Shown piece after piece: positions 3,833 through 31,508 of a DNA stretch of 37,791 bases (positions within the stretch are counted from its first letter, which is position 1; each line of letters begins with the position of its first letter). The translations under genes were made by a program, and so were the position numbers. Under the pieces are notes generated by a model. The model was not told where the DNA came from. It saw nothing but the letters and a program-made list of their open reading frames with translations, and ran no database searches. This stretch comes from Flavobacteriales bacterium (GTDB taxonomy: Bacteria; Bacteroidota; Bacteroidia; Flavobacteriales_D; Sanyastnellaceae), in the NCBI GenBank assembly GCA_011522855.1, contig WTID01000005.1, forward strand, positions 42,965-80,755, in the 5' to 3' direction.

Positions 3833-3836
3833 GCCG

Positions 3837-4094: not shown

Positions 4095-4112
4095 GTCGTG
4101 AATCCAGCCGAA

Positions 4113-6212: not shown

Positions 6213-6289
6213 CAGTGGGCGATTCGAGGCCGAAAAATAGACAATCTTGCACCTCCCTGGCCGTTGGGACGGTCCAAGACGACGCTTCC

Positions 6290-7693
6290 GTGAAACGCAC
6301 CACGCGACTGCTGCTCCGGTCCTTCATCGGACCCTTCGTGATCACATTCATGGTCGCGCTGTTCTTCCTCGACATGCAGTTCCTGTGGGTCTATGCCGAC
6401 GAGATGATCGGCAAGGGCCTCAGCGTCTTCGTCGTCCTTGAACTGCTCCTGTATGCTTCCGCCCGGCTGGTCAACCTCGCGCTCCCGCTGGCCATCCTGA
6501 TGAGCAGCATCATGACGCTGGGCAGTCTGGCCGAACACGAGGAACTGACCGCCCTGAAATCATCGGGCATGCGCCTCGGCCGCATTCTCCGTCCACTGCT
6601 CGTCACCATGGTGCTCGTGGCGGGCGGCGCCCTGCTCTTCGCCAACTACGCCTGGCCGGTGGCCAACCTCAAATTCAGGACCCTCCTCTACAGCGTGACG
6701 CGCAAGAAGCCCACGCTGAACTTGGAGGATGGGGTGTTCTACAACGGCATCGAGGGCCATGCCATCCGCGCGGCCAAGGTGGACAAGGAAACCGGCAGAC
6801 TGGAGGACATTCTCATCCACCAGCATGGTGGCGGACGGGATGGGGCCGGGCTCGTGATCCGCGCCACCGAGGGCACGATGAAAACCTCCCGCACCGGGCG
6901 GTTCCTGCATTTCGACCTGCAGGATGGCACCAGCCATGAGGAGCGGCTCGAGCCTGGCGTCCGCCAACGCGAGCGAACGTATCCCCACATGATCACCGCA
7001 TTCGAGCGCCAGCAGATGCGCATCGACCTGAGCAGCCTGGACTTCGCCAAGGCCGACGAGGCCCTGTTCAAGCGCGCCTATGAAATGATGAGCCTCGGAC
7101 AGCTGTCCCTGGCCATCGACTCCATTGAAGGGCAACGCCGCCACGCCGGCGAGGCCATGCGGGACTTCGGCCAGCGCAACCTGAACCGGAGAACGCTGGA
7201 CGCCTCAGCCGTCCTTCCCACCGACACCGGGGCCGTGCACCGCGACTGGCTCGCCCGCCTCGGCCCTTCGGCAGAGCGCCGCGTGTTCGACGCCGCCAAG
7301 GACATGGTCCGGAACACCACCCAGACCGCGAGGAACCAGATCGACGAACGCAACGCCAAGCGGACGCTCGCCGACCGCCATGCCATCGAATGGCACCGCA
7401 AGCTGTTCCTCGCCTTTGCCTGCATCCTGCTGTTCCTCATCGGGGCCCCGCTGGGGGCCATCATCCGCAAGGGAGGACTCGGTCTGCCCACCGTGCTCGC
7501 GATTCTCCTCTTTGTGGCCTATTACGTCGTGACGATCATGGGGGAGCGCATGGTCCGCAGTGGAGCGCTTTCCCCTGCGCTGGGCATGTGGCTGGGCACC
7601 CTCCTCATGGTCCCTGCCGCCCTCTTCCTCAATTGGCGGGCCGCGCGGGAGAGCACCTGGTCGCCGTTTTCCCGCCTCCGGGCCAGCCGGTAA
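6290..7693 (+). CDS. LptF/LptG family LPS export permease
   Basis: YjgP/YjgQ architecture: an N-terminal TM bundle (LLLRSFIGPFVITFMVALFF...), a large periplasmic insert and three C-terminal TM helices. The start is ambiguous, since both 6215 and 6290 are GTG. I chose 6290 because it gives the canonical short N-terminus. Confidence 0.8.
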   Translation: MKRTTRLLLRSFIGPFVITFMVALFFLDMQFLWVYADEMIGKGLSVFVVLELLLYASARLVNLALPLAILMSSIMTLGSLAEHEELTALKSSGMRLGRILRPLLVTMVLVAGGALLFANYAWPVANLKFRTLLYSVTRKKPTLNLEDGVFYNGIEGHAIRAAKVDKETGRLEDILIHQHGGGRDGAGLVIRATEGTMKTSRTGRFLHFDLQDGTSHEERLEPGVRQRERTYPHMITAFERQQMRIDLSSLDFAKADEALFKRAYEMMSLGQLSLAIDSIEGQRRHAGEAMRDFGQRNLNRRTLDASAVLPTDTGAVHRDWLARLGPSAERRVFDAAKDMVRNTTQTARNQIDERNAKRTLADRHAIEWHRKLFLAFACILLFLIGAPLGAIIRKGGLGLPTVLAILLFVAYYVVTIMGERMVRSGALSPALGMWLGTLLMVPAALFLNWRAARESTWSPFSRLRASR

Positions 7694-18775: not shown

Positions 18776-19120
18776 TCAGCCTTCGATGCGGCGCGCCACC
18801 TGTTGGTTGCCGAAATCGATGTGCACCTGCTGGACTTCAGCCCCTTGGAGGTCCACTTCCACCGTCTGCTCGCCGGGCTTGAGGTTCAGCTCGACCGGAG
18901 CGCCTCCCTCCCACCGGATGGTGCAGGATTGCGCTCCGGCCGCATCGAGGGCAATGTGCACCCGGCCCTCCCCGGCTCGGTGGCAGGAGATCACCCGCGA
19001 ATACGCCCCCGTGATCCGCCCCTTCATCATCATGGCCACGAAGCGGCGGTACAGAACGTAGAGGAACATCGCCATCAAGGCGACAAACAGGACTTGGGAC
19101 AGGAGATCCAACGTGGGCAT
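18776..19120 (-). CDS. hypothetical single-pass membrane protein (114 aa)
   Basis: ATG start and one N-terminal TM helix (LLSQVLFVALMAMFLYVLY), followed by a ~80-aa beta-rich region. GC3-rich codons. Its stop codon directly abuts the argS stop codon. Confidence 0.55.
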   Translation of the reverse strand: MPTLDLLSQVLFVALMAMFLYVLYRRFVAMMMKGRITGAYSRVISCHRAGEGRVHIALDAAGAQSCTIRWEGGAPVELNLKPGEQTVEVDLQGAEVQQVHIDFGNQQVARRIEG

Positions 19121-19129
19121 GACCGGAGT

Positions 19130-19402
19130 TCAGAGTGCGAAGATGCCGCCAATCCGGCCAACGGCCTCGTAGCGCTCAAAGACGTGGTCCGCTGACGCCA
19201 TCTCCTCCCAGATGGTCAGGGAAACGTACTTCCCTCCCCCACTGGACTTGCGCTCGACCCGGACGTCATCGGGAAACACGGCGAGCACGGATCCGATGCG
19301 GTCCGCCTGATTGGGCGCGATGAACTTGAACATGTACTCGGCCGGCCAGTCATGGTGTGCGTCGAGTTGGGCCCGAAGCCCTGCCTTCCTGTCCTCGTCC
19401 AT
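19130..19402 (-). CDS. DUF493 (YbeD-like) family protein
   Basis: The 90-aa product from the ATG at 19402 (MDEDRKAGLRAQLDAHHDWPAEYMFKFIAPNQ...) fits the YbeD/DUF493 pattern. The longer ORF from 19582 would overlap the giant gene. Confidence 0.75.
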   Translation of the reverse strand: MDEDRKAGLRAQLDAHHDWPAEYMFKFIAPNQADRIGSVLAVFPDDVRVERKSSGGGKYVSLTIWEEMASADHVFERYEAVGRIGGIFAL

Positions 19403-19419
19403 GCCGCGAAGGTACCCGT

Positions 19420-19451
19420 GGAAAATGGAAAGGGACGCCCGAAGGCGCCCC
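19420..19451 (-). terminator. candidate rho-independent terminator of the giant gene
   Basis: The minus strand reads GGGGCGCC-TTCG-GGCGTCCC (8-bp stem including one G-U pair, UUCG tetraloop; 19432-19451). It is followed by TTTCCATTTTCC (19420-19431) and begins 48 nt after the stop at 19500. Confidence 0.45.
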
Positions 19452-19499
19452 TTTCGCTTGGTTCTCGTGAGAAGGATGTGGTGTCCCCTCAAGCGAGCA

Positions 19500-22400
19500 T
19501 CACTGCGGGCAATCCGATCCGTAGATCTGGAAGAAGTCCAGCAGGTCATTGATGTTGATCGTGCCGTCTCCATTGAGGTCACCCGGGCACGGCGGCGTGT
19601 ACTCGCAGCTGCCGTCGTTGGTGTTGGCGAGCGGGTTGTAGTTCTCGGCCTGTGGATCCGTGCAGCCTTCCAGCGGCAGGATGCAACCGGAATCGAAGTT
19701 GGCGCTCGGGTCGTAGTTCAGGGCCGTCTCATCGGTACAACCGGGGTAGAGACAGGAACCGTCGTCGATCAGGGCATTCTCGTCGTAGTTGGCCGCGGCA
19801 GCGTCCGTGCAGCCTTCCGTCGGGTAGGCGCAGAAGCCGGCGACGTTCGCATTCGGGTCGTAGTTGTCGGCCTCCGGGTCCATGCAGCCGAGGAACAGGC
19901 AGGTGCCGTCATCGACCAGGGCGGTGGCGTCATAGTTGACCGCAGCCGCATCGGTACAGCCCTCCATCGGGTAGGAACACTCACCGTCCACATTGGCCGA
20001 GGCGTCGTAGTTGTCGGCTTCCGGATCCGTACAGCCAAGGAGCAGGCACGTGCCGTCCTCGTCCGTGGCGGAGGCGTCGTAGTTCAGGGCGTTCGGGTTG
20101 GTACACCCGGCCACCTCGAGCTCGTCGCAGATGCCGTCACCATCCCCGTCGTTCATGCAGGTCTCCCCATCGCAGTCGTAAATGCCCGTGTAGGTGCAGC
20201 TTCCGTCGTCGCTGGTGGCGCCATCCACGTAGTTGCAGGCGCTCTCGTCCGTGCATCCGCAACCGGGGTTGCCGATCGGGAAGGTCATCACGAGGTCGTT
20301 CTCGCCATCGCCCTCAGGGAAGACCTGGAGGCTGATCTGGCCGCTGAGCGTACCACTCGTGGTGAATTGGCCGAGCAGGACGCGGAGGTCGTCACCGGCC
20401 TGAGCGTTGGTCGCCCCGTTCAGGGTGAACCAGGCACCACCGAAGGATCCATCGATGGTGATGTTGCCACCGGCCTCGAACGGCTCGATCCAGTTGGCGT
20501 CCTCACTCTGGACTGCGGTCACTTCCACCTCACCGGCGAGCAGGTTGGGAGCCTGCGTCAGTCCGATGGTCACGTAGCTGTCGTACTCCAGGGCCGGCTG
20601 GATGCCGAACAGGATCGGGTTGATCACCTGTCCGAGGGCTCCGCCGAAGGGATCCTGGTAAAAGGACGTGCTCGTGTTGATGTACGTCTCCAGTCCGTTC
20701 TCACCGACCACGCTGGAGAGCACATCGGTCGGGTTGACCATCGTCACGTACAGGCGGTAGGTCGTCATGCCCGGGATGGCGTCCTCGGCCACGGTCTCCA
20801 GCTCGATGCTGTAGCCGTCGATGACCGGGGCGTTGACGCAGCTGCAGTAGTCGCAGGAACCGTCGTCCACGTTGGCGGGCTCGAAGTAGTTGCAGGCACT
20901 CGGGTCCGTGCAGCCTTCGATGTCGGCCACCACACAGGAACCGTCGTCCTCGTCGGCCAGCGGGTTGTAGTTCAGGGCCTCCGGGTTGGTGCAACCGGCA
21001 TAGAGGCAGGATCCGTCACCGGCCATGGCGTCGGGGTCGAAGTTCAGGGCAGCCGGGTCGTCACAGCCGAGGGCGAAGGTCACCGTGATGGCCTGGGCCA
21101 CTTCGGTGCTGTTGCCACAGTCGTCGGCGATGGTGAAGGTCCGGGTGGCCGTGTAGCCTCCCAGCCCCTGCTCCGTGCAGACGTCGACAAAAGTGATTGT
21201 CACCGTGCCACAGGCATCCTCGGCCTCCGGCATGTCCACCGGGATGGACTGACCGGCCACCACCTGGTAGCTCGTGTCGGCCGGAGCGGAGGTCACCACA
21301 GGCGCCGTGTTGTCGGTGAAGACGATGGTCTGGAGGTGCGTGGCGCTGTTGCCGCAACCATCCTCCGCCGTGAAGGTCCGCAGGACGGTGAAGTCGCCGG
21401 CGCAGTCTCCCTGAACAGTCTCATCGCTGTAGGTCACGGTGACAGAACCGCAGTCATCGCTGGCCGTGGCTTCCGTGACGGGCAGTTCCTCACTGCACTC
21501 GAGGGCGAGGTCCTCCGGGGTGCTGGTGAACACCGGAGCCGTCGTGTCGAGGAAGGAGATCGTCTGCAGGTGCGTGCTGACGTTGCCACAGCCGTCGATG
21601 GCCGTGAAGGTCCGCTCGATCACACGGCTTCCGTCGCACGGGAAGCTCTCGCTGTCGGCGTACGTCACCGCAACACCGGAACAGGCATCGGTGGCCGTGG
21701 CCATCTCGAGGGTGTAGTCGTCGCTGCAATCCAGCGTCTGATCAGCCGGAGCGAAGTCGAACACCGGGGCCGTCATGTCTTCCAACGTGATGACCTGCTG
21801 GGCGCTCGTGCTGTTGCCACAAGCGTCCGTGACCGTCCACGTCCGGGTGATGATGTTGCCGGAAATGCAGTTGGAAGCGCCTTGGGCGGTCATGGAGGCC
21901 GCACCACCGCTGGTGATGGACATCATGCTGCCGGCCACTTCGGTCCAGCTCAGGACGATCTCCTCGCTGGAGACGGACTGGCTGTACTCGGCCGTGGACG
22001 CATCCACGAAGAGGCTGTTGGCGCCGAGTTGGGCTCCCACGAGTCCGGCACCGCTGATGTTGCTGATGCGCACCTCAATGTAGTCGTAGCTCTCGGAGCC
22101 AATCACGTCGAGAACGCTCAGGTTGATCTGGTCACCGGCGATGTCCACGCTGAGGGCACCGCGCAGGTTGATCGGGTTGGACACCTGATCGTCCAGGTCG
22201 AGTTCGACACCGTCGCCGATGGTCACGCCCGTGGCCTCGAGGACCCGCGGGAAGGCGGCGAGGTTGTTGAGGCGGAGCTCCACGCGGAGGTCGGCAGTCA
22301 GGCCGTCGAGCGAGAACTGGCCATCGGTCACCGCATCGCTGAAGCTCACTGTCGGATCGGCATCGCAAGCATCCGCGGCATCGGTCACGTCTCCAGCCCC

Positions 22401-25400
22401 GGCCGGCGTCGTGTCGGCGGAACAATCAAGGGTCACATCAGCCGGTGCCGTGAAGGTCGGCGCGGTGGTGTCCTCAAAGGTGATCGTCCAATCGTGCGTG
22501 GCCGTGTTGCCACAATCGTCCTCAGCGGAGAAGGTCCGCACGACCTGGTAGGTGCAGGCGTCAAGGGTGGTTTCCACATCGGAGAAGGTCACGTTGATGG
22601 CGCCGGAGCAGAGGTCGTCCGCCGTCACCGCAGTGGCCGGGATGGCCTCACCGCATTCCAGTGTGGTGTCCGCGGGCAGACCGGAGAAGGCCGGAGCCGT
22701 CTCGTCCACCACGGTCACTGCCTGGATGGCCTGGCTGAAGTTGCCACAGGCATCGATGGCCGTGAAGGTCCGGATGAGCGTGTACTGGTTGGCACACGTT
22801 CCGGCCTGCGTCGTCATCTCTTCTGTCAGGTCCACCGTGCCGCAGGCATCGCTGGCCGTCGGCATGGGGAAGTCGTACTCGTCCTCACAGCTGAGGGTCA
22901 CATCGGCGGGCAAGTTTTCGATGGTCGGAGCCGTCGTGTCCTCGATGGTGTAGGTCGTCACGGCCGTGTTTACGTTGCCGCAGGCATCCTCAGCAGACCA
23001 GGTCCGCACGAGGGTTCCCGTACCACCGCACCCGGTTTCCGTCATCTCGTCAACGTAGGTGATCGTCACACCATTGCAGTTGTCCACGGCCACGGCGAGG
23101 TTCGTCGGGAGCGGATCGCCGCACTCGAGCGTGGCATCGGCCGGCACGTTGGTGAAGACCGGAGCGGAATTGTCGACCACATGGATCACGTGGCTGACGG
23201 TGTCGGCATAACCGAAGTTGTCGGTCACCACGTAGGAACGGACGATGTCATAGGTCTCGCCACACGGTCCGTCGAGGATCTCGTCGAAGTAGGAGAAATC
23301 GAGATCCGTGTCGCAGTTGTCCGTGGCCGCGGGGTACTCCACGTCCATGCTGGCGGCGGTGCAGCTGATCTCCATGTCCTCGGGCGTCTCGGTGAAGACC
23401 GGAGCCTCGCTGTCGAACAGGCAGACATCGTCGCACTCGTAACCGAACTGCGGGTAGTAGCAGCTCTCGTCGTCGATGATGGCGCTCGGCGAGTAGTTGC
23501 AAGCCGTCTCATCGGTACAGCCACACTGGCTGCCGCCGAAGGTGAGGGTCACGCGCTCCTGGTTCAGGTTGCTTCCCTCCGGGAACACCTGGACGTAGAA
23601 CTGACCGCTGAGTTCGCCGTTCGTCGTGAGCTGGGCGAGCAGGACCTTGTGGTCGTCGCCGGCCACACCGTTGGTCACGTCGGGATTGACGAACCAACCG
23701 GAACCGATGATGTCATCGATGGTGAAGCCGTTGCCTGCCTCAAACGGTCCGCTCCACGGATCGGGTTCGGGCAGTCCCTGGACGCTTCCCTGACCGAGGG
23801 ACGTGTTGGGCACGGCGTCGATGCCAATGGTGAACCAGCTGTCGTACTGGATCTCCGGGAAGAAGTCATACAGGATGGGGTTGATGCCGTTCGGGAACAC
23901 ACCTCCATTCGGGTGCTGGTAGAAGTCCCCCGTGGTCTCCACGTAGAGGGGATTCTCCGTTTGACCCGTCACCGCGCTCACCTGGTCGGTGGCATTCGGC
24001 ATGGTGATGTAGATCCGGTAGGTCGTGTAGCCGGGGATGCCGTTGAGGGCATACTCTTCAATCTCCACGCCGTACTCGGGCATGTCGGTCGTGTAGCCGG
24101 CGCAGCTGCAGTAGTCGCAGGAACCGTTGTCGGTGTCGGCCAGCGGCTGGTAGTTGCAGGCCAGCTCGTCCATGCAGCCCTCGAAGTTGCCGTCGAAGGC
24201 GTCACAGATGCCGTCGCCGTCGCTGTCCACGAGGCAGTTGCCGTCGCAGTCGTATTCGGGCTCCGGATACGTACAGGATCCATCGTCGGTCGTGGCCGTG
24301 GCATCGTAGTTGCACGCCGTGGCGTCGATGCAGCCGAGGCAGCTCGTGAAGTCACAGGACCCGTCGTTCAACGTGGCCGTGGCGTCGTAGTTGCAGGCCG
24401 TGGCGACGGTACATCCTGCGCAGCTCGTGCTCTCGCAGCTTCCGTCATCGAACGTGGCGTTGATGTCGAAGTTGCAGGCCTCGAGGTCCGTGCAGCCCAA
24501 GGTCTCCTGCTCGTCGCAGATGCCGTTGGCGTTGCTGTCGTTCAGGCAGTCTCCGTTGCAGTCCACGAAGGCACTGGCCGGGAACACGCATCCGCCGTCG
24601 TCGGAGGTGGCCGTGGCGTCATAGTTGCACGCCGTGGCGTCCGTACAGCCGCTGCAGGAAGCGTAGTCACACGTGCCGTCGTTGATCGACGCCGCAGCGT
24701 CGTAGTTGCAGGCGGCAGCGTCGGTACAACCGGCACAGCTGGTGGTGTCGCAAGAGCCATCGTCAAACGTGGCGCCGTCGGTGTAGTTGCAGGCCAGCGG
24801 GTTCGTGCAGCCCATCACCTCGGTCTCGTCGCACAGGCCATTGGCATTGGCGTCGTTGAGGCAGTTGCCGTCACAGTCCACATAGTCCACTCCATAGAAG
24901 TCCACGGCGTAGAGGCAGGTCACGGAAATCGTGGCGTCTGCGTCATAGTTGCAGGCAGCCGGATCCGTACAACCGGCACAGGAGGAGAACTCACAATCGT
25001 TCTCCGTATCGCCGAAGTTGCAAGCGAAGGGCAGCTCACACCCCACGAACTCGATGCTCGGGGCGGAACCACCATAGGTGCATCCGTAGGTCAGGAAATC
25101 GGCCACGCCGTCCTCATAGTTGTCGGCAGCAGGGTCACCACAGCAGGTCGTGAAGTCACAGGCGCTGTCGTCCTGGAGCGTGGCCGTCGGGTCGTAGTTG
25201 CAGGCGAAGGTCACCATGCACCCGGCGCAGCTCGTGTACTCACAGGAACCGTCGTCGACGTTGGCCCCGATGAAGAAGTTGCACGCTTGCGGATCAGTAC
25301 ACCCGCCATACTCGCAGGAGCCATCGTTGAAGTCCACCGTGGCGTCGTAGTTGTCGGCGTCCGTATCGGTGCAACCGCCAAAGAGGCACGAACCATCGTC

Positions 25401-28400
25401 GATTGTGGCCGTCTCGTCGTAGTTGAAGGCATCGGCCGAAGTGCATCCGCGGCAGCTGAAGAACTCACAGGAGCCGTCGTTCAACGTGGCCGTCTCGTCG
25501 TAGTTGCACGCGATGTCGTTGGTACAACCGGCGCAGCTCGTGGTGTCACAGGAACCGTCGTCCACGTTGGCGTCCAGGTCGAAGTTGCAGGCGAGCGGAT
25601 CGGTACAACCGGGGTACTCGCAGGAGCCGTCGTTGAAGTCGGCCGTGGCGGAGTAATTCGATGCGGCGTCATCGGTACAGCCACCAAAGACACAGGAGCC
25701 GTCATCGAGAAGGGCGTCCGCCTCGTAGTTGGCGGCGGTGGCATCCGTGCAGCCATAGCAGTCGAACGTACAGGAGCCATCGTTCTCCGTGGCGGCCGGA
25801 TCGTAGTTGCAGGCGCCTTCGTTGTTGCAGCCCTGGACCTCGTTGAGGTCACAGATGCCATCGAAGTCGGCGTCGCTGATGCAGGATCCGTCACACTCGT
25901 AGCCGTAGTCGGCGTACCAGCAGGTGCCATCGTCATCCGTCGCGTCGGCGCTGAAGTTGCAGGCCGTGTCGTCCATGCAGCCGGGGACCTCGTCCTCGTC
26001 ACACACACCGTCCTCATCGAGGTCGTTCAAACAGATGCCGTCACAATCGAAGTGGGTGGCGCCGTACAGATCCTCGGGGAACAGACAGTTGTCGTTGTCC
26101 GTGTAGGCCGTGGACGGATCGTAGTTGCAGGCCGTCTCCAACTGGCAGCCACATTGGGGCTCACCCCAGCGGAGGGTCTGGAATTGCATGTTGTCGCCGT
26201 CTCCGTTGGGGAAGACCTGGACATACACCTGGCCACTGAACACGCCGTCCGTGGTGAACTGACCAATCAGCACACGCAGGTCGTCGCCAGCGGCTCCGTT
26301 GGAAGAGCCGTTCAAGGAGAACCAGCCGCCGCCATAGGCGCCACCGAGTTCGATGTTGCCTCCGGCCTCGAAGGCGCTCACCCAGGACTCGCCCTCGACG
26401 AGGGTCACTTCGCCTTCACCGGCAGCCGGATCGGCCGTGCTGGTGAGGCCGACGGTCACCCAGCTGTCGTAGACGAGCGGCGGGAAGGCGTCGTAGAGCA
26501 TGCCGTTGATGCCATGGGCACTGGCGGCGCCGAGCGGATCCTGATGGAAGCTCGTGCTCGTCCGGATGTAGGTGGGGTTCTCGGAATCGCCGGTCACGGC
26601 GCTGAGGAAGTCGTCCGCGCTCTCCATGGTCACGTAGACCTGGTACGTGGTCATGCCGTCGATGCCGTCCTCGATCGTGTCGATGTCGAGGTTGTACGGA
26701 CCGCTGGCCGGGTACACCCCGTCACAGGAACAGTAGTCGCAAGACCCGTCGTCCGCGGTGGCCACGGCATCGTAGTTGCAGGCGAGGGCGTCCGTGCATC
26801 CAAGGCTCTGCAGGACCGTAATGGTTTGCGTGGCCGTGGCGGCATTGCCGCAGGCGTCCACGGCCGTGAAGGTCCGGGTCACCAGGGTGTAGTCGTTGGC
26901 GGAATCGTCCGTCTCGTCGGCGCTCAGGATGGTGGCGCTGCTGCAGTTGTCCGCCGCTTCGGCCGCATCCGTCGGAAGCGCGTCGTAGATGCTGATGGTC
27001 ACGTCTGCCGGCACGCTCGAGAAGATGGGCGCGACGGTGTCGATGATCTGAATCGTCTGGACATGCTGGGTGCTGTTGCCACAGGGATCAGCCGCCGTGA
27101 AGGTCCGGGTGATCGTGGACTCACCGGCACACTCCCCGTCCTGGGTCTCTTCGGACAGGCTGATGGTCACGTCGCCACAATCATCTGCCGCCTCGATGGT
27201 GGACGCGGGCACGGTGGCGTCACAGGCGATGGCCGTGTCGGCCGGGAATGCCGTGATGGTCGGAGCCTGGGCGTCGACCACGGTGATGACCTGGATGCTC
27301 ACGGATTCATTGCCGCAGGCATCGGTCACACGCCACGTCCGGGCGATGTTCTCGCCGACGCAGGGGTCCATGTTGAACAGGTCGGCATCGTTGTAGGTCA
27401 CCGTGTACTCATCGCAATCGTCCGCGACGGTCACGTCACCCGTGGTGGCGGGGCTGAGGTCGGAACCGCAGGCCACCGTCAGGTCAGCCGGAGCTTCGAA
27501 AACAGGAGCGTCGTCGTCGATGACGGTCAGCGTCCAGGTGGCGGTGCTGCTGTTGCCGGCGGCGTCCGTGGCCGTGTAGGTCCGGGTGATGATGGTCGTA
27601 CAGGCGTCGCCGGAGGTGGTCTCCTGCAGGTCGACCGTGAAGTCGGAACAGGTGTCTTCCACCGTCACGTCGGATCCGGGCAGCGCCTCCTCGCATCCGA
27701 GGGTGAGGTCGGCCGGGAAGTCCACAAAGGCCGGAGCCGTCGTGTCGACGTGGGGACCGAAGGTGAGCATCACGAGCTCACCGAGGCCGTCGGCCTGTCC
27801 GTGCGGGAAGACCTGCACGTAGAACTGGCCGCTGGGCGTGCCATCGGTGGTCAGCTGGGCGAGCAGGACGCGCTGGTCAGCACCCGACACACCGTTGGTG
27901 TTGTCGCTGGTCACGTACCAGGCGCCACCGAAGAAGCCGTCAATGGCGAAATCCTGACCGGCCTCGAACTCGGCGGTCCAGCTTTCGCTGTCAGCCTCGG
28001 CATAGCTGATGTTGGCCTCACCGGCGGCGAGGTCGGGCATCTGGTCGATGCCAATGGTCAGCCAGCTGTCGAACTCCAACGAGGGGAAGGACTCGAACAG
28101 AAGCGGGTTGATGCCATTCGGGAAGAGTCCTCCGAGCTCATCCTGGTAGAACGTGCCCGTGCTGGACAGTGCCGTGGGGTTCTCGGAGTCACCGCTGACC
28201 GCGCTGACGAGGTCGTCGGCATTCGGAGTGTGGATGTAGTAGCGGTAGGTCGTCATGCCCGGCACGCCGTCCACGGCCACGATCTCCTGCTCGAGGCTAT
28301 AACCCGCGCTGCTGGAGGTCACATCGGCACAGCAGAAGAAGCAGGAACCGTCGTCGTCGGTGGCGCCGGAGCTGTAGTTGCAGGCCGTGGCGTCCGTACA

Positions 28401-31367
28401 ACCGGCGATCTCCTGTCCGTCGCAGATGCCGTCGGCATCAGCGTCGGCGAGGCAATTGCCGTCACAGTCGACGTGCTCATTGGCCGGGAACGTGCAAGTT
28501 CCGTCGTCGGTCAGGGCATCCGCATCGTAGTTGCAGGCCGTGGCGTCCATGCACCCGGGGTTGGATGAGGACAGAACGGTCGGAATCCCCACGGCTTGAA
28601 GGCCGGCATCGGTCGCTGCCTGGGCTGCTGCAGAGTTGAAGTAGTAGATGTAGCCAATGGCTGCGGCCTCAAGGGACCACCAGTCCGTGACATCCGGCAA
28701 GATGCTGTTCGGCAGGCTGGCCAGGAGGATCAAGGACGTACCGTTCGTGTATTGGTTCAAATCCAAGGACGTGTTGGTGCAGGCGGTCAAGACCGAAGCA
28801 TATCCGAGACCGTCCATGTTGTTTCCAGAAATGGCCAGATTGTTGGCCTGTCCGGCCACGACTCCGGAGGTCCAGGGAGCGCCATTGACCAACACCTGCT
28901 GGATGTTGTAGAAGTGGTTGTTGGAGATGGTCACCCCCTCGGTGTTGTCCCCCAGCGAAATTGCGGTACCGGACACGCCGTGAATCTCGTTGCCATCGAT
29001 CAGGATGTTGGACGGCGGGTTGACGGGATCCGAATTGCCCCAGCACAGGATGCCATAGGACAACGGCGAGCTGTTGCCAGGGTTGGACAAGGCCATTCCG
29101 CTGATGTCATTGTTCTGGATGGACACATTGGAGGCGCCGGGGTTGACCGTGATTCCAGAGTACGTGCTCGCATCCCCCACCAGGGTGAAGTTGCTGATGC
29201 TCACACCGTCCACATCGGAGGCGATGGAGATACCGACACCAAGGCCGGAGACATCGAGGGTGCTTCCATTTCCGTTCAGGGAAAGGCCCTTGTCGACCGT
29301 GATGCTTTCCGAAAGGGTGATTCCGGAGACCACTTCGAGGGCATCGCCAGCCGAAGCGGCGTCAATGGCGCCCTGCAGCGTGGTGTGGGCCGTACCGGCT
29401 GTGGTGTTGTTGACGTCGTAGCAGATGTCGCAGCTGTTCCAGCAGACGACCGGGAGGGTCGCAGTGCCGGTCACGTCGACTACGCGGTTGACGAATTCAG
29501 CGGGATCGGTCGTGCAGGACTCGGTGCCGTCGAAAGACTCGGACGCATCCCAGCCATTGACGGTGTATTTGTACTCCTGCAGTCCCTCGGTGAGGGCCAC
29601 CGTGAAGGTGTAGACGCCGTCGCCGTCGGAATCGTCCATGGCGTTGCAGCCACCACACCATCCGTTGTAGGTGCCGTTCAGGAAGACGCCGTCCCCGGCA
29701 TTCAGCCCATACTGGCTCATGTCGACTTGGAAGGTGACGTTGTACTGGCAGGACGCATCGTCCACGAGGGCGGTGCTGTCGTAGTTCAAGGCGTCGGAGT
29801 CCATGCAACCGGCGTTTTCCACGCAGGCCTCACAGCTGTTGTAGCAGACCAGATCCAACGTCAGGGGAGCGTCAATCAGCTCGAAGCCGCGGTTGGCGAA
29901 CCCGTCGTTGGGGTTGTAGTCACACGGAGCGCCCACGGGGAGCTCCTCCTGGGCCGTCCATCCGTTGATCGTGAACTTGTATTCGACCACGCCGGGGGCG
30001 AGCGGCAGGGTGGCGGTCCAAACGCCGTCGGCATCGTCGTCAGCGAGCGGATTGCAGGCGCCGCACCACCCATTGAAGCTGCCATTGACGTAGGCGATGT
30101 CCCCGTCTTGCAGACCGGCCTGGCTCATGTCGACCTGGAAGGTGACGTTGTAGAGGCAGGATCCGTCATCGGTGGTCGCCGTGGCGCTGTAGTTGGTGGC
30201 ATCGTCGTCCGTGCAACCGAGGGCGGCCTCGGCCTGCTCGTCGCAGGTCAGGCAGCTGCCGTAGGTGTCGGTCGTGGTCGAACCCGCCGCCGTGAGGCGG
30301 TTGGCGTAGGTGGCGGCATCGGTGACCGCGGCGCAGGCTGCTCCGGCCTGGGCGTCATCGATGAGGTTTTCCTGGGAAGCCCAGTTGTCGATCATGTACT
30401 TGTACTCCACATCACCGGCCGGAATGCACACGGAGACGCTGTACACGCCGTCTCCGTCCTCATCGGACAGGGTGTTGTAGGCCTCGGCACCGCACCAGCC
30501 GCACCAAGGGCCGGTCACGTGCACGGAGGAGAAGGTCTCGCCGCTGCAGGACATGTCCACGGTGAACGTGGTCGGCGTGGTCAGGCAGTTGCCGTCGCAG
30601 TCGAAGTTGGCGGCTGCATAGGTGCAGGTGCCGTCATCCTCGGTGGCCGAGTCGTCATAGTTGCAGGCGTTGCTGTCGGTACACCCGGCGCTGCCGCAGG
30701 ACACGGTCTGGAAGCCGAAGGTGTTCTCGATCAGGAGGGACTGGTCTCCGTTGGGGAAGATCTGGATGTAGAACTGCCCGCTGAGGTCACCGTCGGTGGT
30801 GGCCTGCGCGAGGAGCACCTTCTGATCGGCACCGGAGATGCCGTTGGCGCTGCTGGGCAGAATGTACCATCCCCCGCCGATGGGCGAGCTGATGTCCACG
30901 TTGCCGCCGGCGCCGAACCCGATTTCCCAGGAAGCGACGTTGGGGTCGACAAGCAAGGAGATGTCGGTCTCACCCGCGCCGAGGTCCGGCTGCTGTTCGA
31001 TTCCGATTGTCACCCAGCTGTCGTACAGGACATTCTCCAGTCCCGGCATGGTGTAGAACAAGGGGTTGATGGCCGCAGGGGTCGTTCCACCCAGAGCGTC
31101 CTGATAGAAGGACGTGGTGGTGTTGAGGAACAAGGGATCCGTAGCATCTCCAATCACGGCGGACACGAAGTCATCCGTGGAGGGGGTGTTGAGATACACC
31201 CGGTAGGTGGTCAAACCGGCGACCACATCCGTGGCCACGGTCTCCACCGAGAGCGAGAATCCCGCCATGTCTCCAGTGGACTGGAAACAGGCGTTCTGGG
31301 CATTCGCGGTGCCAAAGAAGGTCACCAGCAAACAAGCGAGGGAGTACAGTTGAAAGCGCATGTTCAT
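19500..31367 (-). CDS. giant secreted Cys-rich mosaic surface protein / putative adhesin (3,955 aa)
   Basis: Uninterrupted frame. The ATG at 31367 gives the signal peptide MNMRFQLYSLACLLVTFFGTANA-Q. The upstream part of the 4,464-aa ORF-track entry is antisense to ffh and is discarded. Modular repeats are listed as separate features. Confidence 0.9.
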   Translation of the reverse strand: MNMRFQLYSLACLLVTFFGTANAQNACFQSTGDMAGFSLSVETVATDVVAGLTTYRVYLNTPSTDDFVSAVIGDATDPLFLNTTTSFYQDALGGTTPAAINPLFYTMPGLENVLYDSWVTIGIEQQPDLGAGETDISLLVDPNVASWEIGFGAGGNVDISSPIGGGWYILPSSANGISGADQKVLLAQATTDGDLSGQFYIQIFPNGDQSLLIENTFGFQTVSCGSAGCTDSNACNYDDSATEDDGTCTYAAANFDCDGNCLTTPTTFTVDMSCSGETFSSVHVTGPWCGWCGAEAYNTLSDEDGDGVYSVSVCIPAGDVEYKYMIDNWASQENLIDDAQAGAACAAVTDAATYANRLTAAGSTTTDTYGSCLTCDEQAEAALGCTDDDATNYSATATTDDGSCLYNVTFQVDMSQAGLQDGDIAYVNGSFNGWCGACNPLADDDADGVWTATLPLAPGVVEYKFTINGWTAQEELPVGAPCDYNPNDGFANRGFELIDAPLTLDLVCYNSCEACVENAGCMDSDALNYDSTALVDDASCQYNVTFQVDMSQYGLNAGDGVFLNGTYNGWCGGCNAMDDSDGDGVYTFTVALTEGLQEYKYTVNGWDASESFDGTESCTTDPAEFVNRVVDVTGTATLPVVCWNSCDICYDVNNTTAGTAHTTLQGAIDAASAGDALEVVSGITLSESITVDKGLSLNGNGSTLDVSGLGVGISIASDVDGVSISNFTLVGDASTYSGITVNPGASNVSIQNNDISGMALSNPGNSSPLSYGILCWGNSDPVNPPSNILIDGNEIHGVSGTAISLGDNTEGVTISNNHFYNIQQVLVNGAPWTSGVVAGQANNLAISGNNMDGLGYASVLTACTNTSLDLNQYTNGTSLILLASLPNSILPDVTDWWSLEAAAIGYIYYFNSAAAQAATDAGLQAVGIPTVLSSSNPGCMDATACNYDADALTDDGTCTFPANEHVDCDGNCLADADADGICDGQEIAGCTDATACNYSSGATDDDGSCFFCCADVTSSSAGYSLEQEIVAVDGVPGMTTYRYYIHTPNADDLVSAVSGDSENPTALSSTGTFYQDELGGLFPNGINPLLFESFPSLEFDSWLTIGIDQMPDLAAGEANISYAEADSESWTAEFEAGQDFAIDGFFGGAWYVTSDNTNGVSGADQRVLLAQLTTDGTPSGQFYVQVFPHGQADGLGELVMLTFGPHVDTTAPAFVDFPADLTLGCEEALPGSDVTVEDTCSDFTVDLQETTSGDACTTIITRTYTATDAAGNSSTATWTLTVIDDDAPVFEAPADLTVACGSDLSPATTGDVTVADDCDEYTVTYNDADLFNMDPCVGENIARTWRVTDACGNESVSIQVITVVDAQAPTITAFPADTAIACDATVPASTIEAADDCGDVTISLSEETQDGECAGESTITRTFTAADPCGNSTQHVQTIQIIDTVAPIFSSVPADVTISIYDALPTDAAEAADNCSSATILSADETDDSANDYTLVTRTFTAVDACGNAATATQTITVLQSLGCTDALACNYDAVATADDGSCDYCSCDGVYPASGPYNLDIDTIEDGIDGMTTYQVYVTMESADDFLSAVTGDSENPTYIRTSTSFHQDPLGAASAHGINGMLYDAFPPLVYDSWVTVGLTSTADPAAGEGEVTLVEGESWVSAFEAGGNIELGGAYGGGWFSLNGSSNGAAGDDLRVLIGQFTTDGVFSGQVYVQVFPNGDGDNMQFQTLRWGEPQCGCQLETACNYDPSTAYTDNDNCLFPEDLYGATHFDCDGICLNDLDEDGVCDEDEVPGCMDDTACNFSADATDDDGTCWYADYGYECDGSCISDADFDGICDLNEVQGCNNEGACNYDPAATENDGSCTFDCYGCTDATAANYEADALLDDGSCVFGGCTDDAASNYSATADFNDGSCEYPGCTDPLACNFDLDANVDDGSCDTTSCAGCTNDIACNYDETATLNDGSCEFFSCRGCTSADAFNYDETATIDDGSCLFGGCTDTDADNYDATVDFNDGSCEYGGCTDPQACNFFIGANVDDGSCEYTSCAGCMVTFACNYDPTATLQDDSACDFTTCCGDPAADNYEDGVADFLTYGCTYGGSAPSIEFVGCELPFACNFGDTENDCEFSSCAGCTDPAACNYDADATISVTCLYAVDFYGVDYVDCDGNCLNDANANGLCDETEVMGCTNPLACNYTDGATFDDGSCDTTSCAGCTDAAACNYDAAASINDGTCDYASCSGCTDATACNYDATATSDDGGCVFPASAFVDCNGDCLNDSNANGICDEQETLGCTDLEACNFDINATFDDGSCESTSCAGCTVATACNYDATATLNDGSCDFTSCLGCIDATACNYDATATTDDGSCTYPEPEYDCDGNCLVDSDGDGICDAFDGNFEGCMDELACNYQPLADTDNGSCDYCSCAGYTTDMPEYGVEIEEYALNGIPGYTTYRIYITMPNATDQVSAVTGQTENPLYVETTGDFYQHPNGGVFPNGINPILYDFFPEIQYDSWFTIGIDAVPNTSLGQGSVQGLPEPDPWSGPFEAGNGFTIDDIIGSGWFVNPDVTNGVAGDDHKVLLAQLTTNGELSGQFYVQVFPEGSNLNQERVTLTFGGSQCGCTDETACNYSPSAIIDDESCYYPQFGYECDDVCLFDSEAPVFTETPEDMEISCTAASMDVEYPAATDNCDTDLDFSYFDEILDGPCGETYDIVRSYVVTDNFGYADTVSHVIHVVDNSAPVFTNVPADATLECGDPLPTNLAVAVDNCNGVTITYVDEMTETGCGGTGTLVRTWSAEDACGNVNTAVTTYTIEDTTAPTIENLPADVTLSCEDEYDFPMPTASDACGTVDLTEEMTTQAGTCANQYTLIRTFTAIDACGNFSQAIQAVTVVDETAPAFSGLPADTTLECGEAIPATAVTADDLCSGAINVTFSDVETTLDACTYQVVRTFSAEDDCGNTATHDWTITFEDTTAPTFTAPADVTLDCSADTTPAGAGDVTDAADACDADPTVSFSDAVTDGQFSLDGLTADLRVELRLNNLAAFPRVLEATGVTIGDGVELDLDDQVSNPINLRGALSVDIAGDQINLSVLDVIGSESYDYIEVRISNISGAGLVGAQLGANSLFVDASTAEYSQSVSSEEIVLSWTEVAGSMMSITSGGAASMTAQGASNCISGNIITRTWTVTDACGNSTSAQQVITLEDMTAPVFDFAPADQTLDCSDDYTLEMATATDACSGVAVTYADSESFPCDGSRVIERTFTAIDGCGNVSTHLQTISFLDTTAPVFTSTPEDLALECSEELPVTEATASDDCGSVTVTYSDETVQGDCAGDFTVLRTFTAEDGCGNSATHLQTIVFTDNTAPVVTSAPADTSYQVVAGQSIPVDMPEAEDACGTVTITFVDVCTEQGLGGYTATRTFTIADDCGNSTEVAQAITVTFALGCDDPAALNFDPDAMAGDGSCLYAGCTNPEALNYNPLADEDDGSCVVADIEGCTDPSACNYFEPANVDDGSCDYCSCVNAPVIDGYSIELETVAEDAIPGMTTYRLYVTMVNPTDVLSSVVGENGLETYINTSTSFYQDPFGGALGQVINPILFGIQPALEYDSYVTIGLTQAPNLLAGEVEVTAVQSEDANWIEPFEAGGNITIDGSFGGAWFTLNGATNAQAGDDLRVLLGQFTTSGTLSGQISLQVFPEGDGENDLVMTFPIGNPGCGCTDESACNYVDGATSDDGSCTYTGIYDCDGETCMNDGDGDGICDELEVAGCTNPNALNYDASATDEDGTCLLLGCTDPEADNYDASANVDGECSYPMEGCTDAAAVNYDATALVDDGTCLFLGCMDPEADNYDPNANVAGFCAYPTEGCTDAAAANYDENALIDDGSCLYPGCTDETALNYDPSANFDSGCILPLEGCTDPQAENYNPLANTNDGSCEYTPPCPGDLNGDGTININDLLDFFQIYGSDCPQ
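19503..19589 (-). other. C-terminal dockerin / EF-hand-like Ca-binding motif bracketed by two Cys
   Basis: aa 3927-3955, CPGDLNGDGTININDLLDFFQIYGSDCPQ. The DxNGDGxIxxxDLL pattern equals one half of a type-I dockerin. Confidence 0.55.
19590..20264 (-). repeat. C-terminal array of 8 Cys repeats (GCTDxxAxNYDxxAxxDDGSCxY) plus one TSP3-like motif
   Basis: aa 3702-3926. The last six units alternate between two subtypes, forming a ~49-aa super-repeat present three times. Confidence 0.8.
20265..20816 (-). repeat. unassigned ~185-aa module, copy 5
   Basis: aa 3518-3701: GMTTYRLYVTM...FYQDPFGG...INPILF...YDSYVTIG...FEAGG...GGAWF...DDLRVLLGQFTTSGTLSGQ..QVFPEG. Confidence 0.8.
21069..23414 (-). repeat. 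8 tandem HYR-like (Ig-fold) modules; the fifth is split by an insertion
   Basis: aa 2652-3433. The ~80-aa period has the pattern D..AP.F...P.D.T..C......A.D.C........C....RT.T..D.CGN......I... Confidence 0.7.
23526..24074 (-). repeat. unassigned ~185-aa module, copy 4
   Basis: aa 2432-2614: GYTTYRIYITM...FYQHPNGG...INPILY...YDSWFTIG...FEAGN...GSGWF...DDHKVLLAQLTTNGELSGQFYVQVFPEG. Confidence 0.8.
24075..26153 (-). repeat. main array of ~21 Cys repeats (CxxACNYDxxAxxDDGSC) interleaved with 5 TSP3-like DCDGxCxxDxDxDGxCDxxE motifs
   Basis: aa 1739-2431. Two adjacent ~104-aa higher-order units at 24255..24881 are roughly two-thirds identical by eye. Confidence 0.85.
26154..26696 (-). repeat. unassigned ~185-aa module, copy 3
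   Basis: aa 1558-1738: GMTTYQVYVTM...FHQDPLG...INGMLY...YDSWVTVG...FEAGG...GGGWF...DDLRVLIGQFTTDGVFSGQVYVQVFPNG. Confidence 0.8.
26802..27746 (-). repeat. 4 tandem HYR-like (Ig-fold) modules
   Basis: aa 1208-1522, with the same ~80-aa pattern as 21069..23414 (DTTAPAFVDFPADLTLGC ... RTYTATDAAGN ...). Confidence 0.7.
27747..28304 (-). repeat. unassigned ~185-aa module, copy 2
   Basis: aa 1022-1207: GMTTYRYYIHT...FYQDELGG...INPLLF...FDSWLTIG...FEAGQ...GGAWY...ADQRVLLAQLTTDGTPSGQFYVQVFPHG. Confidence 0.8.
28557..29411 (-). other. right-handed parallel beta-helix (PbH1 / pectate-lyase-fold-like) region
   Basis: aa 653-937. Successive ~22-aa rungs are rich in G/N/I/S (ISIASDVDGVSISNFTLVGD, GITVNPGASNVSIQNNDISG, NILIDGNEIHG, GVTISNNHFYN, NLAISGNNMDG). 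Confidence 0.6.
29412..30569 (-). other. three CBM20/CBM48-like (E-set) beta-sandwich modules separated by single Cys repeats
   Basis: aa 267-652. Each unit has VTFQVDMS...V.V.G.FNGWCG...D.DGDGVW/Y...L..G..EYKY/F..NGW. Confidence 0.6.
30684..31295 (-). repeat. unassigned ~185-aa module, copy 1
   Basis: aa 25-228: GLTTYRVYLNT...FYQDALGG...INPLFY...YDSWVTIG...GGGWY...ADQKVLLAQATTDGDLSGQFYIQIFPNG. Confidence 0.8.
31296..31367 (-). other. Sec signal peptide of the giant protein
   Basis: MNMRFQLYSLACLLVTFFGTANA|Q: basic N-region, hydrophobic core and an A-x-A cleavage motif. Confidence 0.8.
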
Positions 31368-31508
31368 GCAGTTAAGCGCATCTAAGATAGCTCTTTTGTC
31401 CAAGACTTCTACAGTTTCATCTAAGTTTTTTTCTGTTTCGTCGTCATTTTGAACACTTACAGGCAGCTCAGGGCCCTCCCCTTTCCCCGGTCTACCTTTG
31501 CCGTCCCC
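31368..31508. promoter_or_regulatory. AT-rich divergent promoter region between the giant gene and ffh
   Basis: This is the lowest-GC stretch I saw in the window (tctaagatagctcttttgtccaagacttctacagtttcatctaagtttttttctgtttcgtcgtcatttt). An exact -7 box, TACCTTTG, lies at 31493-31500, 8 nt before the ffh ATG. A near box, TATCTTAG, lies on the minus strand at 31382-31389, 14 nt before the giant-gene ATG. Confidence 0.45.

What the first reader, a model, noticed from the sequence alone, without database searches (positions are those of the whole stretch)
19500..31367. An 11.9-kb gene for a 3,955-aa secreted mosaic protein inserted between argS and ffh
This single uninterrupted frame makes up about a third of the window and is flanked by core genes. 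It combines a signal peptide, 5 unassigned modules, about 39 Cys repeats, TSP3-like Ca sites, 3 CBM-like domains, a beta-helix, 12 HYR-like domains and a dockerin-like tail. I do not recognise this combination from any characterised adhesin, such as SprB, RTX or Bap types. Its codon usage matches the neighbours, so it looks native rather than recently acquired. The likely role is Ca-dependent, glycan-directed attachment to particles, algae or other cells.
Basis: partly seen in the sequence, partly recalled or inferred. Interest (0 to 1): 0.8.

Follow-up and report, generated by a model that had tools for sequence, protein, structure and literature searches.

The report
Giant Flavobacteriales surface protein, half-dockerin tail
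This is a real, conserved 3,955-residue secreted fibre protein of an uncultured planktonic Flavobacteriales bacterium, built partly from unnamed domains and ending in a 29-residue single dockerin repeat where relatives carry the usual type IX secretion (T9SS) tag, so how it reaches and stays on the cell surface is an open question.

Summary
A 3,955-aa ORF lies on the minus strand at 19500-31367. It has a signal peptide, 5 copies of an unnamed 190-aa domain ("module A"), about 38 Cys repeats of 23 aa, 7 TSP3-like motifs, 3 CBM48-like domains, a beta-helix, 12 HYR_4C domains and a dockerin-like tail.

It is not an insertion. The block folD-ffh / giant gene-DUF493-argS is conserved in uncultured Flavobacteriales MAGs down to about 56-60% Ffh identity. 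Independent assemblies give 3,300-3,600-aa orthologues, and dN/dS against one orthologue is 0.13.

The stretch between the first two A modules is a swappable cassette: relatives carry 0, 3 or 4 CBMs, with or without the beta-helix.

Module A is a large unannotated family (2,557 clusters). Its predicted fold is confident (pLDDT 96) and has no PDB match.

The tail is one Cys-bracketed dockerin repeat, half of NCBIfam's "GC-type dockerin", always at the extreme C-terminus. Among module-A proteins it never co-occurs with the T9SS type A sorting domain (61 tail, 24 T9SS domain, 0 both). It also ends unrelated secreted proteins.

Best reading: a Ca-stabilised surface fibre or adhesin with a non-T9SS anchoring or sorting tail. 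Function is untested. All orthologues are annotated "hypothetical".

The parts
19500..31367 (-). Whole gene, 3,955 aa plus stop codon
   Evidence: dN/dS is 0.126 against the L008 orthologue over 3,555 codons.
31299..31367 (-). Sec signal peptide (aa 1-23, ...TANA|Q). Gln at +1 fits the Bacteroidetes 'Q-rule' (from my own knowledge, not tested).
   Evidence: Read directly from the sequence. The N-terminus is conserved in P0001, P0002 and the L003/L004 products.
30693..31268 (-). Module A copy 1 (unnamed ~190-aa beta domain)
28311..30692 (-). Variable cassette between A1 and A2: Cys repeats, 3 CBM48-like domains (aa 264-378, 406-518, 542-652) and a beta-helix (aa 661-935)
   Evidence: The cassette differs between orthologues.
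27747..28310 (-). Module A copy 2
26808..27734 (-). HYR_4C domains 1-4
26148..26705 (-). Module A copy 3
24111..26150 (-). Long array of about 22 Cys repeats interspersed with 5 TSP3-like DxDxDGxCDxxE motifs
23520..24083 (-). Module A copy 4
21078..23402 (-). HYR_4C domains 5-12
21906..22301 (-). Cys-free domain of about 132 aa nested inside one HYR domain (aa 3023-3154). No Pfam, PDB or PHROGs match. Conserved in all HYR-bearing orthologues at this locus, but absent from the CBM-type genes there (L061, L067, L080).
20256..20822 (-). Module A copy 5
19599..20258 (-). C-terminal array of 8 Cys repeats plus one TSP3-like motif
   Evidence: AF2 gives pLDDT 90-97 for the repeats.
19503..19589 (-). 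Tail CPGDLNGDGTININDLLDFFQIYGSDCPQ: one Cys-bracketed dockerin/EF-hand repeat at the extreme C-terminus
31368..31508 (.). 141-bp AT-richer divergent intergenic region shared with ffh (presumed promoters, not tested)
19130..19402 (-). DUF493 (YbeD-like) small gene directly downstream on the same strand. It holds this position throughout the clade.

Best explanation
This is a native, vertically inherited gene for a giant Sec-exported extracellular fibre, most likely a cell-surface adhesin or coat protein, of an uncultured planktonic Flavobacteriales lineage.

The chain is a string of small independently folded units:
- About 38 23-residue Cys repeats, with 7 TSP3-like acidic loops.
- 12 Ig-like HYR_4C domains that act as stalk.
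- Five regularly spaced copies of an unnamed 190-aa beta domain (module A), the family's signature and the likely interaction module.
- Near the N-terminal tip, a strain-variable cassette of CBM48-like and beta-helix modules that tunes ligand specificity.

The protein lacks any T9SS C-terminal domain. It ends instead in a 29-residue Cys-bracketed single dockerin repeat (a Ca loop plus a helix).

I infer that this tail is the anchoring or sorting element. It would hold the fibre on the cell, or direct it there, through a Ca-dependent dockerin-type interaction in place of T9SS sortase attachment.

Shown here: the architecture, conservation, purifying selection, cassette variability, the strictly terminal position of the tail, and its mutual exclusivity with T9SS domains.

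Inferred only: extracellular location, Ca binding, disulfide bonding, adhesion, and what the tail does.
For: A real gene under selection:
- dN/dS is 0.126 over 3,555 codons.
- Codon usage matches the flanking genes.
- Colinear orthologues of 3,297-3,611 aa occur in independent assemblies, including contigs of 120-200 kb.

Organism: the closest loci are Flavobacteriales MAGs.

Synteny: the order folD-ffh / giant-DUF493-argS-ddah holds down to about 56-60% Ffh identity.

Conserved module grammar with a variable A1-A2 cassette.

Module A:
- 2,557 representative clusters at E<=1e-3, with no Pfam or NCBIfam family.
- AF2 pLDDT 96.3.
- No structural match at E<=1e-3 in PDB or BFVD.

Tail:
- It aligns to each repeat of a solved type I dockerin, 2y3n_B, E 3e-4.
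- It gives weak matches to NF041540, Dockerin_1 and EF-hand models.
- AF2 predicts a loop followed by a helix.
- Geometry is fixed: 25 residues between the two Cys in 83 of 90 tails, and at most 2 residues after the last Cys in 82 of 90.
- Among the top 149 module-A proteins, 61 end in the tail, 24 end in a T9SS type A CTD and none has both. The CTD assignment was verified against TIGR04183 in 8 of 10 tested cases.
- Both kinds of ending occur within single MAG loci.
- The tail also ends an EEP-family enzyme and a beta-helix protein.

CBMs resemble starch- and glycogen-binding CBM48 domains.
Against: - There is no experimental or expression evidence.
- No export route across the outer membrane is known in Bacteroidota for a Sec substrate that lacks both a T9SS CTD and a lipobox, so surface location is assumed.
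- The tail scores below the curated cut-offs of every dockerin model (15.3 bits against 29; 16.7 against 22.9). It has one repeat where true dockerins have two.
- No cohesin-type partner was identified.
- CBMs are absent from close orthologues, which weakens the glycan-binding part of the story.
- T9SS presence in this exact organism is only suggested: the choice-of-anchor B protein at 2405-3886 has a sub-threshold CTD-like end (12.9 bits).
Confidence: 0.6

Rival explanations
1. The tail is a miniature, non-canonical T9SS export signal. The protein would then be an ordinary T9SS-secreted adhesin of the SprB/RemA kind that lost the ~80-aa Ig-like CTD.
For: Related module-A giants do use canonical T9SS type A CTDs, for example L074 at 3,576 aa. 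The tail sits exactly where a CTD would. T9SS is the only known route for such proteins in Bacteroidota (my own knowledge).
Against: A 29-residue loop plus helix has none of the beta-sandwich structure of T9SS CTDs. No TIGR04183, PF18962 or PF13585 signal was found. Its sequence is that of a dockerin repeat.
Confidence: 0.17
2. This is a cellulosome-like assembly system. Module A would be the cohesin-like receptor for the tail. Surface-anchored module-A proteins would act as docking sites for tail-bearing enzymes and giants. Giants with 5 A modules and 1 tail would chain into a Ca-dependent surface network.
For: Module A and the tail co-occur from minimal 287-aa proteins (P0010) up to 4,400-aa giants. 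Module A is also found with T9SS CTDs and PEP-CTERM-like ends, which are anchor-type contexts. The tail also sits on enzymes, as on cellulosomal clients. Weak Foldseek hits of module A include type II cohesins, with probability up to 0.82-0.85.
Against: The structural similarity is not significant: best E is 0.018, TM normalised to the query (TMq) is at most 0.37, and TM normalised to the cohesin target (TMt) is at most 0.47. There was no cohesin Pfam hit. No binding prediction could be run. Co-occurrence alone is equally explained by shared ancestry of surface proteins.
Confidence: 0.12
3. It is primarily a polysaccharide-processing scaffold, with the beta-helix as a lyase or hydrolase and the CBMs as targeting modules, and not mainly an adhesin.
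For: It has a right-handed beta-helix and three CBM48-like domains.
Against: No catalytic family was recognised. The whole cassette is missing in close orthologues while the rest of the protein is conserved.
Confidence: 0.06
4. It is an assembly chimera or a decaying pseudogene.
For: Short-read contigs break inside the gene. L004 joins the same 5' end to a different CBM-rich 3' part. The K_MB5 allele is split by a frameshift.
Against: Internal DNA repeats are at most 83% identical. Colinear orthologues come from many assemblies. dN/dS is 0.13.
Confidence: 0.02

Closest known systems
SprB / RemA-type T9SS cell-surface adhesins of Flavobacterium johnsoniae
   Same: Giant, highly repetitive, Sec-dependent surface proteins of Flavobacteriia with Ig-like or HYR-like repeat arrays. 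Relatives of this protein with the same modules do carry T9SS CTDs.
   Different: This protein has no type A or type B CTD. It contains module A, the 23-aa Cys repeats and a dockerin-repeat tail. No link to gliding is known.
Dockerin-bearing proteins: type I dockerins (PF00404) and NCBIfam NF041540 'GC-type dockerin domain-anchored protein'
   Same: The Ca-loop and helix sequence DLNGDGxINxxDLLxxxxxxG aligns to both repeats of solved dockerin 2y3n_B. Relatives carry a two-unit version in which each unit ends in FGxC. The position is C-terminal.
   Different: There is only one repeat, about 27 aa bracketed by two Cys. Scores are below the cut-offs. No cohesin is known in these genomes. The host is an aerobic planktonic Flavobacteriales, not a cellulosome producer.
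RTX/T1SS giant adhesins (LapA, Marinomonas MpIBP)
   Same: Multi-thousand-residue, Ca-dependent, modular fibres with ligand-binding modules near one end and a long repeat stalk.
   Different: Those proteins lack a Sec signal peptide and use C-terminal RTX repeats with a T1SS signal. Here there is a signal peptide and no RTX hit.
'Choice-of-anchor' domain families (NCBIfam naming, e.g. TIGR04312)
   Same: Module A behaves like such a family. The same passenger domain is found with alternative C-terminal ends: the half-dockerin tail, the T9SS CTD and PEP-CTERM-like ends.
   Different: Module A matches none of the curated families. The PEP-CTERM ends were read by eye only.
Segment 331-353 of MPEG-1/perforin-2 (PDB 6u2k, 6u23)
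   Same: One Cys repeat superposes at 0.7 A with 56% identity over 25 columns. The sequence match has E 0.085.
   Different: It is a single copy in a metazoan pore-forming protein. The match is too short to be statistically significant.

Membership tests
HYR_4C (PF23237) | HMM score above the gathering cut-off, in repeated ~75-aa 4-Cys Ig-like units | tested here: met
   166.8 bits against a cut-off of 27, 12 stretches.
CBM48 / AMPK1_CBM (PF02922, PF16561) | HMM score above the cut-off | tested here: met
   59.3 bits against 26.8, and 40.6 against 22.4. Weak PDB matches to SEX4, pullulanase and AMPK-beta CBMs.
CBM48 / AMPK1_CBM | Binds alpha-glucan | not testable with these tools
   Needs a binding assay or glycan array.
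Right-handed beta-helix (PF13229) | HMM score above the cut-off | tested here: met
   29.0 bits against 25.9 on aa 640-940. Not reported in the whole-protein scan.
T9SS type A cargo (TIGR04183 / PF18962) | C-terminal ~70-80-aa sorting domain | tested here: not met
   No hit at E<=1 on the whole protein or at E<=10 on the last 55 aa. The same models score 24-45 bits on relatives.
T9SS type B cargo, SprB-like (TIGR04131 / PF13585 CHU_C) | C-terminal type B sorting domain | tested here: not met
   No hit.
Type I dockerin (PF00404) | Two tandem ~22-aa Ca-binding loop-helix repeats, with a score above the cut-off | tested here: not met
   16.7 bits against 22.9, covering only profile positions 1-16. 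One repeat only.
GC-type dockerin (NF041540) | 67-position C-terminal domain scoring at least 29 bits | tested here: not met
   15.3 bits. 25 residues are stretched over profile positions 1-65. Two-unit versions exist in relatives.
Dockerin-type function | Ca-dependent binding to a cohesin partner | not testable with these tools
   No cohesin was found. Module A resembles cohesin only at Foldseek TMt <=0.47 (target-normalised) and TMq <=0.37.
RTX / T1SS adhesin | No Sec signal peptide, with C-terminal RTX nonapeptide repeats | tested here: not met
   A signal peptide is present and there are no RTX hits.
Thrombospondin type 3 / TSP3_bac repeats | DxDxDGxxDxxD Ca-binding repeat recognised by the HMM | tested here: inconclusive
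   7 regex matches to DxDxDGxCDxxE, but no PF02412 or PF18884 hit at E<=1.

The most novel reading that the evidence does not exclude
The Cys-bracketed single dockerin repeat would be a previously undescribed class of C-terminal anchoring or sorting tag in planktonic Flavobacteriales. It would be used in place of the T9SS C-terminal domain on giant fibres and on enzymes. The unnamed module A would be its cohesin-like receptor. Together they would form a Ca-dependent, cellulosome-style surface assembly system in a phylum where T9SS is thought to be the only route for such proteins.
Probability: 0.2. Interest if true: 0.85.

Novelty: new variant of a known kind. Interest (0 to 1): 0.62.

Why it matters
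Planktonic Flavobacteriales are major degraders of algal organic matter, and their surface proteins decide what they stick to.

This family is conserved at a fixed housekeeping locus across marine, brackish and freshwater MAGs, and every member is annotated as hypothetical.

It exposes two things that can be tested:
- A widespread domain, module A, with at least 2,557 sequence clusters, a confidently predicted fold and no match among solved structures.
- A 29-residue C-terminal tag that alternates with the T9SS sorting domain on the same kinds of passenger protein.

If that tag is an independent anchor or export signal, the view that T9SS CTDs define the Bacteroidota surface proteome would need revising. 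It would also give a very small tag for surface display.

If the tag turns out to be decorative, the protein is still a good case of cassette swapping in a giant adhesin.

Tried and rejected
- Exact look-up of the giant protein, and of Ffh with the TTG start, found nothing. Ffh from the ATG at 31509 worked.
- A single-sequence homologue search with module A returned only 14 fragments. Profile and exhaustive searches were needed.
- Foldseek of module A against PDB and BFVD gave nothing at E<=1e-3. A module A profile against PDB sequences also gave nothing.
- PDB sequence searches with the whole protein, the beta-helix and the nested insert found no useful relatives.
- PHROGs found nothing, and module A is absent from viral contigs.
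- Rfam and tRNA scans of the window were empty.
- Literature searches on GC-type dockerin, dockerin with T9SS, HYR giants in flavobacteria and the DDGSC motif found nothing specific.
- I tried to show a T9SS substrate in the window itself. The choice-of-anchor B protein's C-terminus reaches only 12.9 bits on TIGR04183, which is inconclusive.
- The ~65-aa C-terminal domain of the abundant ~290-aa module-A proteins matched no sorting-domain model.
- A lipoprotein reading of the N-terminus (Cys12) was rejected. The lipobox is poor and the Cys is not conserved in relatives.
- The 3,085-aa plus-strand ORF at 19311-28568 was rejected as an antisense shadow of a gene with GC3 of 84%.
- One Pfam call failed on out-of-frame coordinates.
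Full report
**1. Observation**

The window carries an uninterrupted minus-strand frame whose real start is the ATG at 31365-31367 and whose stop is at 19500-19502. It encodes 3,955 aa. The longer 4,464-aa "ORF" that the ORF lister reports simply runs on antisense through ffh.

The product begins with a typical signal peptide, MNMRFQLYSLACLLVTFFGTANA|Q. It is extremely acidic and Cys-rich: D 11.4%, C 5.5%, K 0.2%, R 0.9%.

Pfam recognises 12 HYR_4C domains and three AMPK1_CBM/CBM_48 domains and nothing else. NCBIfam finds nothing above its cut-offs.

Self-profile searches define the rest:
- Five copies of a ~190-aa module, "module A".
- About 38-39 copies of a 23-aa repeat, GCTDxxAxNYDxxAxxDDGSCxY.
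- Seven DxDxDGxCDxxE motifs.
- A beta-helix that passes the PF13229 cut-off when scanned alone.
- One HYR domain split by a nested Cys-free insert of about 132 aa.

**2. Is it a real gene?**

- Internal DNA repeats are at most 83% identical, so collapse during assembly is unlikely.
- Codon usage matches the flanking genes: RSCU r=0.94, GC3 0.84 against 0.79.
- Colinear orthologues turn up in independent assemblies. L008 has 3,555 aa on a 200-kb contig. L023 has an ORF of up to 3,297 aa (stop-to-stop). An NCBI MAG protein of 3,611 aa is named "hypothetical protein".
- dN/dS against the L008 orthologue is 0.126 over 3,555 codons. Values run from 0.03-0.17 in module A up to 0.25 in HYR domains 1-4.

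The 3,085-aa ORF on the opposite strand is a shadow of this GC3-rich gene.

**3. Organism and locus**

The closest genome loci all come from uncultured Flavobacteriales or Crocinitomicaceae MAGs. Judging from the isolate names, these come from marine, brackish and freshwater plankton.

The gene is not an insertion. Of 74 genome loci that contain module A, 50 have ffh and/or argS within 10 kb, and their Ffh identity to the window runs from 99.5% down to 56%.

The conserved order is folD-ffh, then divergently the giant gene, then a DUF493 gene on the same strand, then argS-ddah. Close relatives also carry a 114-aa membrane ORF after DUF493.

**4. Architecture compared across relatives**

Written as a string (A = module A, c = Cys repeat, B = CBM, H = HYR, T = tail), the window protein is AcBcBcB[beta-helix]ccA-HHHH-cA-c(x22)-Ac-HHHHH[insert]HHHH-ccccA-cccccccc-T.

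Close relatives keep everything after the second A module but differ between A1 and A2:
- No CBM and no beta-helix (L007).
- Beta-helix only (L008).
- Three CBMs without the helix (L013).
- Four CBMs (L016-L019, and L003).

Distant relatives (Ffh about 60% identical) show two patterns at the same locus. Most read AccAcccAH[insert]HHHcAcccAcHHHHHHHccT, again with five A modules, the HYR domain carrying the nested insert, and the tail. A few (L061, L067, L080) instead have a shorter CBM-type gene with 2-3 A modules and no HYR domains or insert.

So the stalk, the A modules and the tail form the conserved core in the HYR-type orthologues. The CBM/beta-helix block is a swappable cassette near the N-terminal tip.

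A second paralogous family of about 4,400 aa, with 5 A modules and about 98 Cys repeats, sits elsewhere in the same genomes and ends in a variant of the tail.

**5. Module A**

An exhaustive profile search finds 2,557 representative clusters at E<=1e-3, and 388 at E<=1e-30. No Pfam or NCBIfam family covers it, and every name supplied by a source is "hypothetical protein".

AlphaFold2 with a 57-sequence alignment gives a mostly-beta domain at pLDDT 96.3 and pTM 0.91.

Foldseek finds nothing at E<=1e-3 in PDB or BFVD. The best weak hits (query-normalised TM at most 0.37) are MSCRAMM adhesin domains, type II cohesins and adaptin ears.

It is a widespread, unnamed domain whose fold was not matched in the libraries available here.

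**6. Cys repeats**

AF2 predicts each 23-aa repeat as a tiny, well-defined unit (pLDDT 90-97), strung together without fixed mutual orientation (pTM 0.58).

The repeat is common in small Tara and GOS proteins. There it co-occurs with T9SS type A and type B CTDs, dockerin, EF-hand and C-type lectin domains.

One repeat superposes on residues 331-353 of MPEG-1/perforin-2 with 56% identity over 25 columns at 0.7 A. The match is too short for significance.

**7. The tail**

The last 29 residues are CPGDLNGDGTININDLLDFFQIYGSDCPQ.
- They align to each of the two repeats of a solved type I dockerin, 2y3n_B, at E 3e-4.
- They give sub-threshold matches to Dockerin_1, to EF-hand models and to NCBIfam's "GC-type dockerin" NF041540: 15.3 bits against a cut-off of 29, with 25 residues stretched over a 67-position profile.
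- Some relatives carry a two-unit form in which each unit ends in FGxC. The window tail is therefore a half, single-repeat version.
- AF2 predicts a loop followed by a helix.

In 90 tails the geometry is nearly invariant:
- The pattern is C-x2-D-[LIF]-[ND]-G-D-G-x-[VI]-x-[VI]-x-D-L-L-x-F-L-x-x-[FYW]-G-x-x-C.
- There are 25 residues between the two Cys in 83 of 90.
- There are at most 2 residues after the last Cys in 82 of 90.

Three observations bear on its role:
- Among the 149 best module-A proteins, 61 end in the tail, 24 end in a T9SS type A sorting domain and none has both. The T9SS model was checked against TIGR04183 in 10 cases, and 8 passed.
- Both kinds of ending occur within single MAG loci (L034, L063, L073). 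One MAG of the clade appears to hold both a tail-type orthologue (L035) and a 3,576-aa module-A/HYR giant with a canonical CTD (L074).
- The tail also ends unrelated secreted proteins: an endonuclease/exonuclease/phosphatase-family enzyme with TSP3_bac repeats, a beta-helix protein, and a 580-aa unknown protein about 7.5 kb beyond ffh.

The tail therefore behaves like a general C-terminal tag that stands in for the T9SS CTD.

**8. Mechanism**

The best-supported reading runs as follows. The protein is exported by Sec and folds oxidatively; it has 216 Cys. Its acidic loops load with Ca2+. The result would be a long, beads-on-a-string surface fibre. The swappable CBM/beta-helix tip and the five A modules supply binding sites, and the half-dockerin tail provides attachment or sorting.

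Everything beyond architecture, conservation and selection is inference.

The main unsolved step is crossing the outer membrane. Bacteroidota have no known route for a Sec substrate without a T9SS CTD or a lipobox (my own knowledge). Three options follow:
- The tail is a miniature T9SS signal.
- It uses or marks another route.
- The protein docks through it onto a partner.

The most novel consistent model treats module A as a cohesin-like receptor for the tail. That model rests only on co-occurrence and non-significant fold similarity.

**9. Comparison and novelty**

The protein works like giant modular adhesins such as SprB/RemA or the RTX adhesins. It fails the defining tests for each: no type A or type B CTD and no RTX repeats. 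It also fails the curated thresholds for dockerin families.

I file it as a new variant of a known kind, a giant bacterial surface fibre. It has two undescribed parts, module A and the Cys-bracketed half-dockerin tail, and a clear, testable question about sorting.

No characterised orthologue was found in PDB, in the curated family libraries or in the searchable literature.

Noticed in passing
window 2405-3886 (-): A 493-aa choice-of-anchor B family protein (TIGR04312, 374 bits). Its last ~60 aa look like a divergent T9SS type A sorting domain but reach only 12.9 bits (cut-off 23). This hints, without proving, that this organism has a T9SS.
   Followed up: partly
window 19130-19402 (-) and 18776-19120 (-): A DUF493 (YbeD-like) gene sits directly downstream of the giant gene on the same strand in every relative examined, and could be co-transcribed. 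A 114-aa membrane ORF follows it in close relatives only. The plus-strand ORF 18803-19195 is probably a shadow.
   Followed up: partly
L004 696-4793 (GCA_049617405.1): A contig with 100% identical Ffh carries a complete 1,365-aa gene. It shares the first ~440 aa with the window protein, then continues with about 8 CBM-like modules and a different tail (CPTDIDGDGATAVGDLLIILGAFGQTCE), followed by ribA and not argS. This is either recombination with a paralogue or an assembly chimera.
   Followed up: partly
L041, L049, L053, L066 (e.g. L041 2567-15889): A second paralogous giant family of about 4,400 aa in the same MAGs: 5 module A copies, about 98 Cys repeats, no HYR domains. It ends in the tail variant CWDFDFSGAVGIQDLLDLLLLFNQSCGAE.
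   Followed up: partly
window 19599-19670 region (one Cys repeat); PDB 6u2k_B and 6u23_A residues 331-353: The 23-aa Cys repeat matches a segment of metazoan MPEG-1/perforin-2 (56% identity over 25 columns, rmsd 0.7 A; sequence E 0.085). The match is too short to be significant.
   Followed up: partly
proteins P0198-P0264 (e.g. P0224, seen on 126 contigs): A very abundant family of ~290-aa proteins made of a signal peptide, one module A and an unassigned ~65-aa C-terminal domain with a 'YDxxGR' motif. That domain matched no sorting-domain model.
   Followed up: partly
P0008 and P0118 C-termini: Some module-A proteins end in PEP-CTERM-like sequences (VPAPATMVLFGLVFFKSRRR; PEPSSTLILGSTLVMGVLLRSKRR), a third type of anchor. 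These were read by eye only. P0008 shares the window protein's signal peptide and may be chimeric.
   Followed up: no
window 19311-28568 (+): A 3,085-aa antisense ORF lies opposite the giant gene. Its translation is low-complexity and R/G/V/A-rich. It is a by-product of 84% GC3 and not a gene.
   Followed up: yes
window 3909-6293 (+): A 794-aa ORF with no Pfam or NCBIfam hit and noticeably lower GC3 (0.64) than its neighbours.
   Followed up: no
L022 9884-20570 (OX044365.1, K_MB5 chromosome): In this complete MAG chromosome the orthologue is split into 995-aa and >2,648-aa ORFs by a frame change. This is either a long-read indel error or a natural pseudogene allele.
   Followed up: no
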